Positions 6,592-33,025 of a stretch of DNA of 64,000 nucleotides are shown here, in pieces (within the stretch, counting starts at the first letter, position 1; each line of letters starts with the position of its first letter). The DNA comes from the human T2T-CHM13v2.0 reference genome, Homo sapiens, in the NCBI RefSeq assembly GCF_009914755.1, contig NC_060937.1; one strand, given 5' to 3'. Made by a program: the position numbers and the translations under genes. The notes beneath the pieces are model-generated. The model saw only the letters and a list, made by a program, of their open reading frames with translations, did not search any database and had not been told where the DNA came from.

Positions 6592-6944
6592 TGATATGGT
6601 TAGGCTTTGTGTCTCCACCCAAATCTCAACTTCCCCAGGTGTTGAGGGAGGAACCTGGTGGGAGGTGATTGGATCATGGGGGCAGTTTCCCCCATGTTGT
6701 TCTTGTGTGAGTGAGTATTCACAAGATATGATGTTTTTATAAATGTTTGGCAAGTTGTTCCTTTGCTTGCTCTCTCTCTCACCTGCCACCCTGTAAGATG
6801 TGCCTGCTTCCCCTTCCACCATGATTGTAAGTGTCCTGAGGCCTCTCTAGCTGTGTGGAACTGTGAGTCAATTAAACCTCTTTTCATTATAAATTCCTCG
6901 GTCTCCAGAAGTTCTTCCTAGCAGTGTGAAAATGGACTAATACA
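6592..6944 (+). mobile_element. THE1 (THE1C/D-like) MaLR solo LTR
   Basis: tgatatggttaggctttgtgtc...ctgtgagtcaattaaacctctt...aatggactaataca with TG...CA termini. Confidence 0.92.
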
Positions 6945-6977
6945 GCATAATAATGACTGTTTATATTGTATTAGGTA

Positions 6978-7222
6978 TTTTTTTATTATACTTTAAGTTT
7001 TAGGGTACATGTGCACAACGTGCAGGTTTGTTACATATGTATACATGTGCCATGTTGGTGTGCTGCACCCATTAACTGGTCATTTAGCATTAGGTATATC
7101 TCCTAATGCTATCCCTCCCCGCCTCCCCACCCCACAACAGTCCCCGTTGTGTGATGTTCCCCTTCCTGTGTCCATGTGTTCTCATTGTTCAATTCCCACC
7201 TATGAGTGAGAACATGCGGTGT
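6978..7222 (-). mobile_element. L1PA (L1PA3/4-like) 3' end, 5'-truncated
   Basis: ttttattatactttaagttttagggtacatgtgcacaacgtgcagg...gagtgagaacatgcggtgt; TSD tgtattaggtatt at 6967-6979 and 7603-7615. Confidence 0.95.
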
Positions 7223-7322
7223 CAACCTACACACATCTTCCCATATATTTTAAATCATCCCTGCATTACTTATAATACCTAATGTATTATAAGTACTGCA
7301 GGTCACCTCTGTGGTGAATATG

Positions 7323-7600
7323 CATACATTTCCATTTCATTAGTTCAAATTGACTAACAGCCATCTAAGCATGAAGTCAAGGAATCATAAGTCATTTTCC
7401 AACAGAGAATCCCATATAAGCTGCAGCTCACTGACCAATGGCTATTCTCATCTAGGAAATGGTCTCCCTTGAGAGGCAGCACAGAGAGTGGAAATAGTAA
7501 GGTCTTTGGAACGGACAATTGTGTGACCTTAGTTAAATACCTTATGACCCTGAGCGTTTGTTTCCTTGTTTGCTGAATGGTGGGAAATAAGGTTCATCTT
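7323..7600 (-). repeat. 278-bp inverted duplicate of 8997-9274
   Basis: Base-by-base manual comparison gives 4 mismatches in 278 bp and no indels. Confidence 0.97.
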
Positions 7601-8380
7601 AATGTATTAGGTATTGTAAGTAATGCAGGGATAATTTGAAATATGTGGGAGGATGTGTGTAGGTTACATGCAAATACTACACCATTTCATGTCAGAGACT
7701 TGAGCATCTGTAGATTTTGGTATCTGTGGGGGTCCTGGAACCAATACCCCACGGTACTGAGAGACAACTATATTAGCAAATGTGATGTAAGAGGAGGCTT
7801 GATTCTACTTGTGTGCCTGGGCTTGTGCTCAGGTGATTCAGGCTCAATAAAAATGTGCCCTGGAGTTACTGTCCCTTTATCCAGGGCTCCACGGGGTGAG
7901 AAACGGGACAGACCTGAACCCACCTCAACCTGGAGCCCTGCAGGTGAGTGCAGCCTGGACCAGCTGAGCTTCAACCCATGTGCAGACTCATATGTGAGAA
8001 AAATAAATGTAGTTATAAGCCACTGAGATTTTGCATTTGTTATGTAGCATTGTGGTAATAGAGAACTAACACTGTGCTTGTCTTCCCTTCTGTAAAACAG
8101 GAATCTGATCTTCCCACAGGGGGTTCTGTTCTAAGGCTTAAAATAAAATAATCCTGTTAGTGCAGTGCTTGACTCTTAGAAGATGATATGATATAAATAA
8201 ATTGCAGCTATTTTAAATAATGAAAATATGGGATATACATCCAAAATAAAGGGCATAGTTTCTGCACAGAAGGGAATTAGCCAAATAAAGAGGAAAAAAG
8301 GTAAGGTTCTCACATTGTGTTGTGTGTCTCCTGGAAATTTGTTATTGTTCTGAGTGCTTTCTGTTTACTCATTCAATGTA

Positions 8381-8454: not shown

Positions 8455-8866
8455 TTGATTGATCTGTTAACTTATCTATTTATCAGCATTGGCCCACATG
8501 ATTGTGAGGGCTGGCAAGTCTGAGATTTGTAGGGCAGGCTGGCAGGCTTAGAAACTCAGGTAGAGTGGATGTTGTAATCTTCAGTCTACAGTCTGCAGGC
8601 CAGGAAGGCTGGAAACTCAGGCAGGGTTTCTCTGTTGCAGTATTGAGGCAGAATCCCTTCCAGATTGGGAAACTTCAGTCTTTGCTCTTGAGGCCTTCCA
8701 CTGATCGGATAAGGCCAACCCACATTATGAAAGGGTCATTAGCTTTACTTGAAGTCAATTGATCATATGTGTTAATCCCATTAAAACAATACCTTCACAG
8801 CAACATCTTGACTGGTGTTTGGGCGCTATAACCTAATCAAGTTGACACTTAAAATTAACCATCACA
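8381..8866 (-). mobile_element. MLT2 (ERVL) solo LTR
   Basis: Ends aagttgacacttaaaattaaccatcaca; internal gctggcaagtctgagatttgtagggcaggctggcagg. Confidence 0.9.
8413..8452. repeat. (CA)20 microsatellite
   Basis: Perfect dinucleotide run inside MLT2. Confidence 0.98.
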
Positions 8867-8971: not shown

Positions 8972-9126
8972 GTTTTATCCTTACAGAAGCCCTGTAAAGA
9001 TGAACCTTATTTCCCACCATTCAGCAAACAAGGAAACAAATGCTCAGGGTCATAAGGTATTTAACTAAGGTCACACAATTGTCCGTTCCAGAGACCTTAC
9101 TATTTCCACTCTCTGTGCTGCCTCTC
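8972..9126 (-). mobile_element. MIR
   Basis: aaggaaacaaatgctcagggtcataaggtatttaactaaggtcacaca...ctgtgctgcctctc. Confidence 0.65.
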
Positions 9127-9737
9127 AAGGGAGACCATTTCCTAGATGAGAATAGCCATTGGTCAATGAGCTGCAGCTTATATGGGATTCTCTGTTGGAA
9201 AATGACTTATGATTCCTTGACTTCATGCTTAGATGGCTGTTAGTCAATTTGAACTAATGAAATGGGAATGTATGGATATAAATTTTAATTGCAACAAATT
9301 CTGAAGGACTTTATATGTGCACATTTTATATTATCAGATTACACTTCCCAGGAGTGGAGTTAACAGAATTAGTTCTCACTCTCCTACCAACTACCACAAT
9401 TAAGTGAAGGCTCTTGCCAGAAAATAAAGTAAATCTATTGTACATGCTTGTAAACAATAGACAAATTGCGTAGTGTAACACAAAAGTCAGCCTAATGTTT
9501 GTACATGGTGGAGATATTGATTAGTTAAAGTTTATTTCATGTATCCCTACTATTGCATTGGGTTTTCATATGTTTCCTTCTTCTTCTTGTGTGTTTGTTA
9601 TTCTTATGTCTGGTTCCAGTTAATACTTCTAGAGAAAAGTTCACTTTTCTAGATTCACTCACTGTTACATAAATAAGTGTATAAGGGCTTAGGTACTGTT
9701 TACTAAAGGCCATCTCTGTGGTGAATATGCTGTGTGA

Positions 9738-10760
<1,023 letters not shown>

Positions 10761-32678: not shown

Positions 32679-33025
32679 CATTTTGGTCTTCTGTATCCCT
32701 TGGTTCCACATTAATGGATTCATCCAACTGTGGATTGAAAATATTCAGAAAAAAGGAGGATTGCATCTATATTGAACATGCACAGACTTTTTTTCTTGTC
32801 ACTCTTTCTTAAATAATACAGAATAACAACTATTTATCTAGCATTTACATTGTGTTGGGTATTACTAGTAATCTAGAGAGGATTTAAAGTATACAGGAAG
32901 ATGTGCTCAGGTTAGATGCAAATACTATGGCATTTTATGTCAGACACTTGAGCACCCACAGATTTTTGTATCTGGAGGGGGGGGTCCTGGGACCAATGCC
33001 CTGTGGATACTGGGAGATGGCTGTA
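32679..33025 (-). mobile_element. MER2, near full length, inside a MIR
   Basis: ctgtatcccttggttccaca...gggtcctgggaccaatgccctgtggatactgggagatggctgta. Confidence 0.9.

What the first reader, a model, noticed from the sequence alone, without database searches (positions are those of the whole stretch)
6967..7615. L1PA insertion whose TSD encloses a four-part mosaic of locally templated host DNA
Seen in the sequence: the 13-bp TSD tgtattaggtatt (6967-6979 and 7603-7615) brackets more than the 245-bp antisense L1PA 3' end (6978-7222). It is followed by: (a) 7224-7283, the reverse complement of the immediate right flank 7606-7665 (5 mismatches in 60, sharing the locus-specific taatgcaggg variant of MER2); (b) a 12-bp fold-back at 7284-7295; (c) 7294-7323, a same-strand match to 9701-9730 (4 mismatches in 30, last 17 bp exact); (d) 7323-7600, the reverse complement of 8997-9274 (4 mismatches in 278). 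The joins show short microhomologies (tact, atat). Established: L1 target-primed reverse transcription produces TSDs, and here the + strand is the first-strand cDNA. Inference: one retrotransposition event was resolved by at least four template switches within about 2.5 kb. Possible mechanisms are ORF2p template jumping, polymerase-theta end joining or MMBIR-like synthesis. The two long pieces are complementary to the + strand, as expected if a + strand nascent RNA was the template.
Basis: partly seen in the sequence, partly recalled or inferred. Interest (0 to 1): 0.85.

Follow-up and report, generated by a model that had tools for sequence, protein, structure and literature searches.

The report
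L1 insertion carrying locally copied DNA
A short LINE-1 fragment in an MTUS2 intron was sealed into the chromosome only after about 380 bases had been copied piecemeal from DNA within 2.1 kb of the break; such messy repair is known from tumours and cultured cells, and here it is preserved in the reference genome.

Summary
In 13 of 29 other copies of that repeat, the two flanks overlap by exactly the 13-nt TSD, so everything in 6980-7602 is inserted. After the L1 come five parts:
- one extra C (7223);
- an inverted copy of the right flank (7224-7283);
- a 19-bp snap-back arm (7284-7302, loop CTAAT), not 12 bp;
- 21 nt matching 9710-9730 on the same strand;
- an inverted copy of 8997-9279 (283 nt, 98%).

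The 283-nt piece has only these two copies in the 3.1-Gb genome. The 17-mer of the short piece occurs three times.

The best reading is one TPRT event whose 5' end was joined after serial microhomology-guided copying from the far side of the break. Nam 2023 and Mendez-Dorantes 2024/2026 describe this kind in somatic, tumour and cultured cells, so this is a new, unusually complex germline member.

DNA versus nascent-RNA templates remains open. No orthologue or second haplotype could be checked. One feature is unexplained: the flank copy differs from its source at 5 of 60 positions, against 4 of 277 for the long copy, and four of those five changes lie in the flank.

The parts
6967..6979 (.). 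Left copy of the target-site duplication (TGTATTAGGTATT); its 3' TT is the primer end of the nicked + strand
   Evidence: In 13 of 29 other copies of the host repeat, the left-flank and right-flank hits overlap by exactly these 13 nt.
6980..7222 (-). 5'-truncated LINE-1 3' end (243 nt). The A tail is read as the T run 6980-6986 on the + strand.
   Evidence: 39 other genomic copies match at 95-97%, from 40 scored of 757 candidates. A longer family member (L073) carries Exo_endo_phos and the L1 ORF1 dsRBD-like domain on the same strand. The fragment differs from the majority of its 29 nearest copies at 6 of 244 positions.
7223..7223 (+). One extra C between the L1 5' end and piece a; neither source templates it
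7224..7283 (+). Piece a: inverted copy of the right flank plus the last 10 nt of the TSD (source 7606-7665)
   Evidence: 55 of 60 identical. Four derived bases are shared only with the local flank.
7284..7302 (+). Piece h: snap-back arm complementary to 7260-7278, with loop CTAAT at 7279-7283
   Evidence: I5. It carries the same A as piece a at the position equivalent to 7616.
7303..7323 (+). Piece c: same-strand copy of 9710-9730 (19 of 21 identical, last 17 exact)
7324..7600 (+). Piece d: inverted copy of unique DNA 8997-9273. The match runs back to 7318, through the shared ATAT.C junction block.
7601..7602 (+). AA between piece d and the right TSD. It is either filler or part of a 16-nt TSD with one mismatch.
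   Evidence: D12.
7603..7615 (.). Right copy of the target-site duplication
7616..7665 (+). Right flank, the source of piece a. Four flank-derived changes (7616, 7633, 7638, 7645) cluster in the first 30 nt after the TSD.
8997..9279 (+). Source of piece d: single-copy intronic DNA, still in place
9701..9730 (+). Source of piece c (9710-9730), preceded by 9 nt of homeology to the hairpin arm (TACTAAAGG against TACTGCAGG, 7 of 9)

Best explanation
This is one endonuclease-dependent TPRT insertion of a 5'-truncated LINE-1 into a MER2-type repeat. Its 5' end was joined to the other side of the break only after about 380 nt of extra DNA had been copied in short runs from local sequence.

Shown:
- The + strand was nicked after ...GGTATT, and the + strand is the first cDNA strand.
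- A 13-16-nt TSD encloses the L1, one extra C, and four locally derived pieces a, h, c and d.
- Every template lies on the reciprocal-end side, 0 to 2.1 kb from the nick.
- The sources are still in place, so this was copying and not cut-and-paste.
- The junctions carry short or imperfect homology: AGG within TACT..AGG, and ATAT.C.

Inferred:
- The staggered nicks became a double-strand break.
- The 5' strand of the reciprocal end was resected for about 2 kb or more.
- Its 3' overhang self-annealed near 8997 and was extended 283 nt, which became piece d next to the TSD.
- The cDNA end gained piece a, snapped back on itself for 19 nt (h), then annealed to the exposed - strand at 9701-9709 and was extended 21 nt (c).
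- The two new 3' ends paired through ATAT.C, and the gaps were filled.

The polymerase cannot be read from the sequence (ORF2p, Pol theta or a replicative enzyme). I put single event at about 0.85, local templating at about 0.97, and DNA rather than RNA templates for a and d at about 0.55-0.6. The confidence given is for the statement as a whole, including the DNA-template part.
For: - The TSD is real and the empty site is contiguous. In 13 of 29 other copies the two flank hits overlap by exactly 13 nt, and all 29 aligned copies read through the site.
- The family is LINE-1, and the truncation is exactly at 7222.
- Piece d is unique DNA with only two copies genome-wide, and it directly abuts the right TSD. 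The reciprocal-end self-annealing model predicts this and says the TSD is preserved (Mendez-Dorantes, passages).
- Piece a is local in origin: four derived bases are shared with the flank, and 0 of 37 other copies have GCAGGG.
- The hairpin is strong: 19 bp, z -8.6.
- At the h|c and c|d junctions, the homology sits at the 3' end of a + strand nascent chain: 7 of 9 (P 0.0013) and 5 of 6. There is none on the other side, 2 of 12 each.
- The copies have diverged (5 in 283 and 5 in 60). That is what an old real duplication gives, not an assembly duplication.
- There are precedents. Nam 2023 reports 3 (+1 combined with an L1-body inversion) somatic L1 insertions with a 52-220-bp inverted duplication of the upstream target flank. 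[quoted passage not shown]
Against: - No orthologue, other haplotype or read data could be examined, so single origin rests on anatomy alone.
- Divergence is uneven. Piece a differs from the flank at 5 of 60 positions and piece d from its source at 4 of 277 (Fisher P 0.011). A homogeneity test with the L1 (6 of 244) gives P about 0.012.
- Piece a includes TSD bases contiguous with the flank. On the cut chromatid, only the - strand keeps that continuity. A + strand nascent piece a therefore needs RNA or a sister chromatid as template, which the two-ended DNA model does not explain.
- The direction of synthesis is only weakly inferred. At c|d it rests on one base (G7322).
- The nick site TATT/ATAA is only a degenerate match to TTTT/AA.
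Confidence: 0.55

Rival explanations
1. RNA-templated version. ORF2p left the L1 RNA at 7222 and reverse-transcribed nascent MTUS2 intronic RNA for pieces a and d. The DNA-templated steps (snap-back h, piece c) fell in between.
For: - Pieces a and d are both complementary to the + strand, and MTUS2 is a + strand gene (hub annotation).
- Piece a copies TSD and flank as one contiguous template. On the cut chromatid the + strand cannot provide this, but a transcript can.
- Junction homology favours + strand synthesis.
- One extra nucleotide at the L1|a junction is what is recalled for RT template jumps. No call supports this point.
Against: - Pieces h and c have the wrong polarity for sense RNA, so DNA templates are needed anyway.
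- All templates lie on the reciprocal side of the break.
- Piece d abuts the TSD, as the self-annealing DNA model predicts.
- MTUS2 expression in the germline or early embryo is unknown here.
- Nothing in the sequence marks RNA, such as editing or splicing.
Confidence: 0.22
2. MMBIR or FoSTeS-like copying from the intact sister chromatid. The cDNA 3' end invaded the sister by microhomology and switched strands and positions several times before rejoining.
For: - Both strands and the uncut TSD-flank continuity are available on a sister, so a, c and d all have templates.
- Microhomology or homeology is present at three of the five junctions.
Against: - Sequence cannot separate this from the resected-end model.
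- Nothing explains why only the reciprocal side was used.
- The L1|a junction has an extra C that interrupts the TGT homology.
Confidence: 0.12
3. Two or more separate events: an ordinary L1 insertion, then a later templated insertion or inverted duplication at its 5' edge (or the reverse order).
For: Divergence is unequal: 8.3% for piece a and 1.4% for piece d.
Against: - One TSD encloses everything, and there is no second TSD or junction scar.
- A later event would have to hit the exact L1/TSD boundary.
- A structure that began as L1-a-loop-flank has only 5-10 nt of the TSD to the right of the L1, so a later event could not recreate the full 13-nt right TSD.
- The excess differences of piece a lie in the flank and not in piece a itself, 4 of 5. 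This does not make piece a older.
Confidence: 0.08
4. Assembly artefact in the reference.
For: No evidence was found. Read support could not be checked here.
Against: - The copies differ from their sources (5 in 283 and 5 in 60).
- The pieces are joined at microhomologies inside a TSD.
- A mis-join would give identical copies and no TSD.
Confidence: 0.02

Closest known systems
Short foldback inversion (inverted duplication) of the 5' upstream target flank at somatic L1 insertions, 'process C' of Nam et al. 2023 (Nature, PMC10191854; section 11 read)
   Same: An inverted duplicate of the flank next to the L1 5' end lies inside canonical poly-A and TSD hallmarks. The size class matches: 52-220 bp reported, and piece a is 60-66 nt. 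The authors attribute it to extra DNA synthesis at final resolution.
   Different: Those cases are somatic colon clones, 3 (+1 combined with an L1-body inversion) of 1,708 somatic insertions called in normal and adenomatous clones (the reported 0.3% implies a base near 1,200). Here the allele is in the reference germline genome. It has three further pieces: a snap-back arm, a 21-nt same-strand piece from 2.1 kb away, and a 283-nt inverted piece from 1.4 kb away.
[quoted passage not shown]
   Same: The model is a resected reciprocal end whose 3' overhang self-anneals by microhomology and primes synthesis. That gives an inverted duplication with the TSD kept. Piece d abuts the TSD as the model predicts.
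   Different: The inverted-duplication examples they describe involve small hairpins with 2-bp homology. Here the loop would be about 1.4 kb, and the product is a four-piece mosaic that also needs extension of the cDNA end. Their figures and supplements were not visible to me.
Twin priming (Ostertag and Kazazian 2001; seen only as cited)
   Same: It uses two-ended logic. Both 3' ends of the staggered break are extended and then annealed at microhomology, which leaves an inverted segment inside an intact TSD.
   Different: In twin priming the inverted segment is L1 cDNA primed on the L1 RNA. Here no inverted L1 is present. The inverted segments are unique host DNA and host repeat flank.
L1 chimeras made by RT template switching to other RNAs, such as U6/L1 and mRNA/L1 (Cell Genomics 2026, PMC13174262, passages). 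Also the nearby pre-mRNA co-insertion of Nam 2023.
   Same: Extra sequence is joined to the L1 5' end inside one TSD. Pieces a and d are oriented as cDNA of the host transcript.
   Different: The sources here are intronic DNA within 2.1 kb, not abundant small RNAs or spliced mRNAs. Two pieces have the wrong polarity for RNA. MTUS2 does not appear in that paper's four readable supplementary tables.
Polymerase-theta templated insertions and MMBIR/FoSTeS serial template switching (recalled; named only in reference lists seen)
   Same: These also give short copied runs from nearby sequence in either orientation, snap-back copying, imperfect microhomology at each join, and mismatches near the joins.
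   Different: Those processes are described at ordinary breaks or stalled forks. Here the break is an L1 TPRT intermediate, and one run is 283 nt. No enzyme can be assigned from the sequence.

Membership tests
Endonuclease-dependent L1 TPRT insertion | The inserted sequence is the 3' end of a LINE-1 | tested here: met
   39 other copies match at 95-97%. A longer member, L073, has Exo_endo_phos (E 4e-13) and the L1 ORF1 dsRBD-like domain (E 2e-6) on the same strand. The 'L1PA' subfamily name was not tested.
Endonuclease-dependent L1 TPRT insertion | A target-site duplication flanks the insert, and the empty site holds one copy | tested here: met
   There is a 13-nt exact repeat. In 13 of 29 paralogous copies the two flanks overlap by exactly 13 nt; 15 gave no left-flank hit and 1 gave an unrelated hit. 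The true orthologous empty site was not available.
Endonuclease-dependent L1 TPRT insertion | A poly-A tail at the 3' junction | tested here: met
   A 7-nt T run at 6980-6986 lies on the + strand directly after the TSD. It is short.
Endonuclease-dependent L1 TPRT insertion | A nick at a TTTT/AA-like site | tested here: inconclusive
   The nicked strand reads TATT/GTAA now. It reads TATT/ATAA if piece a keeps the ancestral base at 7616. That is 4 of 6 against the motif as quoted.
Twin-priming 5' inversion | The inverted segment is L1 sequence contiguous with the non-inverted part | tested here: not met
   7223-7602 consists of host flank and unique host DNA. Piece d has only two genomic copies.
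L1 5' transduction | The extra 5' sequence has the same sense as the L1 and derives from upstream of a full-length source element elsewhere | tested here: not met
   The L1 is truncated to 243 nt, and the extra pieces derive from 0-2.1 kb away at the target itself.
L1 insertion with inverted duplication of the reciprocal-end flank (Nam process C; Mendez-Dorantes outcome 3) | An inverted copy of target-side DNA lies between the L1 5' end and the TSD, the source is retained, and the TSD is preserved | tested here: met
   Pieces a and d are inverted copies. Their sources at 7606-7665 and 8997-9279 are still present, and the TSD is intact.
L1 insertion with inverted duplication of the reciprocal-end flank (Nam process C; Mendez-Dorantes outcome 3) | It arises in the same event as the L1 insertion | not testable with these tools
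   This needs primate orthologues or other haplotypes, and none is reachable here.
RT switch to nearby host pre-mRNA | The co-inserted pieces are antisense to the host transcript on the first cDNA strand | tested here: inconclusive
   This is met for a and d, but not for h and c (gene strand from the hub annotation).

The most novel reading that the evidence does not exclude
Pieces a and d were reverse-transcribed from nascent MTUS2 intronic RNA, possibly RNA hybridised to the resected break end, after the polymerase left the L1 RNA. DNA-templated snap-back and gap copying fell in between. On that reading, this fixed germline allele records one enzyme run that switched among L1 RNA, host pre-mRNA, its own product and chromosomal DNA. 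The cluster of four flank changes right after the TSD would then be the scar of low-fidelity fill-in at the same event.
Probability: 0.2. Interest if true: 0.6.

Novelty: new member of a known kind. Interest (0 to 1): 0.35.

Why it matters
How the 5' end of an L1 copy is attached is the least understood step of retrotransposition. Complex outcomes have so far been documented mainly in tumours, colon clones and over-expression systems. This locus shows that the same messy resolution entered the germline and persisted. It left a 283-bp, 98% inverted repeat with a 1.4-kb spacer inside an MTUS2 intron, which should form a long double-stranded RNA hairpin in the transcript. With five junctions in one allele, it gives more constraints on strand order and microhomology use than the single-piece cases in print. 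It also yields concrete predictions for orthologue comparison. It does not reveal a new kind of mechanism.

Tried and rejected
- Earlier findings were not open.
- Two literature searches failed on term format. The first was re-sent corrected; the second was dropped.
- Chance MER2 similarity for piece a. Other copies match piece a as well as the local flank does: 88-93% against 55 of 60. That is because piece a is close to the family majority. I rejected chance similarity because four derived bases are shared only with the local flank.
- APOBEC-type C>T editing of the cDNA. Four of the five a-versus-flank differences read T in piece a and C in the flank complement. Three of those four are states where piece a agrees with the family majority (23, 29 and 24 of 29), so the flank changed and not piece a. 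Rejected.
- ADAR editing of an RNA template. It would give T>C in piece a, and only one site (7256) fits. Rejected.
- Error-prone synthesis of piece a. Rejected for the same polarity reason.
- Twin priming and 5' transduction. Defining features were not met.
- A later second event. It cannot recreate the full right TSD.
- ORF searches to name the family. L047 had no ORF. The L062 ORF with RVT_1 lies on the wrong side of the match and belongs to a neighbouring copy. The L068 ORF had no family. L073 then gave the L1 domains.
- Small control. 2 of 58 fetched 3.2-kb loci (29 L1 and 29 MER2-type) hold a local pair of 40 nt or more at 90% or more. Both are L1 loci, and the pairs were not examined further. 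The set is too small to estimate how often such mosaics occur.
- The supplementary tables of PMC13174262 do not mention MTUS2. I did not search by coordinate.
- The subfamily (L1PA number) could not be assigned. Age is bounded only loosely by 6 of 244 private differences.
Full report
**What is there**

The + strand from 6967 to 7615 reads as follows:
- TSD (TGTATTAGGTATT);
- a 7-nt T run;
- 243 nt of antisense repeat ending at 7222;
- one C;
- piece a (7224-7283);
- a 5-nt loop (7279-7283, the last bases of a);
- piece h (7284-7302);
- piece c (7303-7323);
- piece d (7324-7600, with the match running back to 7318);
- AA;
- the TSD again.

blastn of 6900-7700 against the window gives these matches:

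| Query | Subject | Length | Identity | Note |
|---|---|---|---|---|
| 7318-7600 | 9279-8997 | 283 nt | 98.2% | E 5e-140 |
| 7224-7289 | 7665-7600 | 66 nt | 89.4% | |
| 7294-7323 | 9701-9730 | 30 nt | 86.7% | last 17 exact |

**The repeat is a LINE-1**

The fragment matches 39 other genomic places at 95-97%, from 40 scored of 757 candidates. A longer member of this set (L073) carries, on the same strand, Exo_endo_phos (E 4e-13) and the Pfam 'L1 transposable element dsRBD-like domain' (E 2e-6). Of the eight family copies printed, seven continue TTGGTTTTTTGTCC after the position of 7222 and one continues TGGGTTTTTTGTCC; the window does not continue this way. So the L1 is truncated exactly at 7222.

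No call named them.

**The TSD is real**

The flanks belong to a repeat family with thousands of copies: 3955 candidates, of which 40 were scored at 81-88%. I aligned the left flank (6880-6979) and the right flank (7603-7780) separately to 29 fetched copies:
- 13 copies gave a left-flank hit, and in all 13 it overlaps the right-flank hit by exactly the 13 nt of the TSD.
- 15 copies gave no left-flank hit at E 0.01.
- 1 copy gave an unrelated hit.

In the multiple alignment all 29 read ...ATTGTATTAGGTATT|ATAAG... without interruption. The pre-insertion site was therefore one contiguous repeat copy, and everything in 6980-7602 was inserted.

**The extra pieces are local copies, not chance or repeat-family matches**

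- Piece d has exactly two places in the 3.1-Gb genome, both in this window. It is also the only non-self pair at 95% or more over 50 nt or more, among 93 pairs in the window.
- The 17-mer of piece c occurs three times genome-wide: the two local sites and one on another chromosome. Its reversed control occurs 0 times. By my own arithmetic about 0.4 occurrences are expected by chance. The source region 9660-9760 is single copy.
- Piece a needed more care. Other family copies match it at 88-93%, as well as the adjacent flank does at 55 of 60, because piece a is close to the family majority. However, piece a and the adjacent flank share four states that the family lacks:
  - 7625 G (26 of 29 others have C);
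  - 7626 C (25 of 29 have T);
  - 7629 G (29 of 29 have A);
  - 7641 A (21 of 29 have G).
  None of 37 other copies has GCAGGG. Piece a also carries the last 10 nt of the TSD in the right register. It is a copy of this flank.
- Piece h is complementary to 7260-7278 at 18 of 19 positions, and it shares with piece a the A at the position equivalent to 7616. The hairpin folds at -15 kcal/mol, z -8.6.

- The fold-back is 19 bp, not 12.
- Bases 7294-7302 belong to the hairpin arm (8 of 9) rather than to the 9701-9709 match (7 of 9). Piece c is therefore 21 nt, and the nine bases before it are junction homeology.

**Junctions**

| Junction | What is seen |
|---|---|
| L1\|a | TGT shared, but interrupted by the extra C |
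| a\|h | Snap-back with loop CTAAT |
| h\|c | The product end TACTGCAGG matches TACTAAAGG before the c source, 7 of 9 (P 0.0013); terminal AGG is exact |
| c\|d | ATATGC against ATATCC, 5 of 6 |
| d\|TSD | At most 1-2 nt, or none if the TSD is read as 16 nt with one mismatch |

At h|c and c|d the homology lies at what would be the 3' end of a chain growing left to right on the + strand. The other side shows 2 of 12 matches at each junction. This weakly favours + strand growth at those two joins, or annealing of two 3' ends at c|d. At c|d the inference rests on one base (G7322).

**Geometry**

The L1 is on the - strand, so the + strand is the first cDNA strand, primed from ...GGTATT-3'. All four templates lie to the right, on the reciprocal-end side, within 2.1 kb.

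Pieces a and d have - strand polarity, and pieces h and c have + strand polarity. Piece a spans the TSD and flank as one template. On the cut chromatid, that continuity exists only on the - strand. Otherwise it requires a sister chromatid or a transcript.

**What is known**

- Nam et al. [quoted passage not shown] They ascribe it to 52-220 bp of extra DNA synthesis. They also report one insertion in which pre-mRNA transcribed near the site was co-inserted.
- The 2026 version of that preprint (passages) proposes that the reciprocal end is resected and its 3' overhang self-anneals by microhomology. Priming synthesis there gives an inverted duplication with the TSD preserved. I did not see their figures or supplements, which may hold multi-piece cases.
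- Kojima 2010 (passages) counts extra nucleotides at 14.6% of 5'-truncated human- and chimpanzee-specific L1 junctions, without tracing their origin.
- The 1,019-genome study (passages) lists 311 inverted duplications, median 284 bp for the 277 outside mobile-element insertions. It favours a replicative origin.

I did not search for a prior description of this particular locus, beyond finding no MTUS2 entry in four supplementary tables of PMC13174262.

**Most likely mechanism**

Shown: one TSD encloses the L1 and the four copied pieces; the templates are local, retained and all on one side; and the joins carry short homology.

Inferred:
1. The staggered nicks became a double-strand break.
2. 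The reciprocal end was resected for about 2 kb or more.
3. Its 3' overhang folded back near 8997 and was extended 283 nt, which places piece d next to the TSD.
4. The cDNA end acquired piece a, snapped back for 19 nt (h), then annealed at 9701-9709 on the exposed - strand and was extended 21 nt (c).
5. The two new 3' ends paired at ATAT.C and were filled in.

The weak point is the template of piece a.

**Rivals**

- RNA templating of a and d from nascent MTUS2 RNA (0.22). It solves the template problem for piece a and fits the polarity of a and d, but it still needs DNA steps for h and c.
- Copying from the sister chromatid in MMBIR style (0.12).
- Separate events (0.08).
- Assembly artefact (0.02). 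This is unlikely because the copies have diverged from their sources.

**An unexplained feature**

Piece a differs from its source at 5 of 60 positions, while piece d differs at 4 of 277 (Fisher P 0.011). Pooling a, h and c gives 8 of 100 against d, P 0.0036.

I polarised the five differences with 29 family copies:

| Position | Flank | Piece a | Family copies |
|---|---|---|---|
| 7616 | G | A | A in 23 of 29 |
| 7633 | A | G | G in 15 of 29 |
| 7638 | G | A | A in 29 of 29 |
| 7645 | G | A | A in 24 of 29 |
| 7651 | G | A | G in 27 of 29 |

At the first four positions piece a keeps the family state and the flank is derived. Only at 7651 is piece a the derived one. The 4-to-1 split is not itself significant (binomial P 0.375).

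The four flank changes sit within 30 nt of the TSD, and three of them are A>G on the + strand. Errors made while copying piece a, APOBEC editing of the cDNA, and ADAR editing of an RNA template all predict changes in piece a, so they do not fit. A low-fidelity fill-in of the resected + strand next to the junction would fit. So would chance plus local rate variation. An empty-site orthologue would decide between them.

The L1 itself differs from the majority of its 29 nearest copies at 6 of 244 positions, and four of those are clustered at 7121-7124. That is compatible with either rate.

**Verdict**

The single-event, multi-switch reading is the best available but is untested against orthologues. 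The RNA-template argument is not discriminating. The kind of event is already described in somatic, tumour and experimental settings, so this is an unusually complex germline member of a known kind.

Noticed in passing
window 7318-7600 and 8997-9279: The insertion created a 283-bp, 98% inverted repeat with a 1.4-kb spacer. With piece a and the flank it also created a nested 66-bp inverted repeat. Both lie inside an MTUS2 intron on the sense strand. The pre-mRNA should form a long double-stranded hairpin, a likely A-to-I editing substrate.
   Followed up: no
window 7616-7645: Four flank-derived substitutions (A>G, G>A, A>G, A>G) fall within 30 nt immediately after the right TSD, while the inverted copy keeps the family-majority bases. 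This may be a fill-in scar of the insertion event or may be chance.
   Followed up: partly
window 32851-32948: A second, more diverged copy of the same host repeat family, 74% identical to 7603-7700.
   Followed up: no
window 6800-6945: A different repeat abuts the host repeat on the left and ends near 6945 (...GGACTAATACAG). The host repeat can be followed leftwards only to about 6936-6940 in 5 of 29 copies, so it is truncated or interrupted there.
   Followed up: no
window 8534-8695: Diverged direct repeats with 61-nt and 94-nt spacing (D1 and D6, 73% identity) lie between the insertion and the source of piece d. This may be an old tandem or SINE-like remnant.
   Followed up: no
L063 (1-1551) and L053 (1496-3112): Two of the 29 fetched L1 loci hold local high-identity pairs. 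L063 has a 186-nt inverted pair at 94.6% and a 225-nt direct pair at 93.3%. L053 has an 801-nt direct pair at 95.5%. They may be other rearranged L1 insertions.
   Followed up: no
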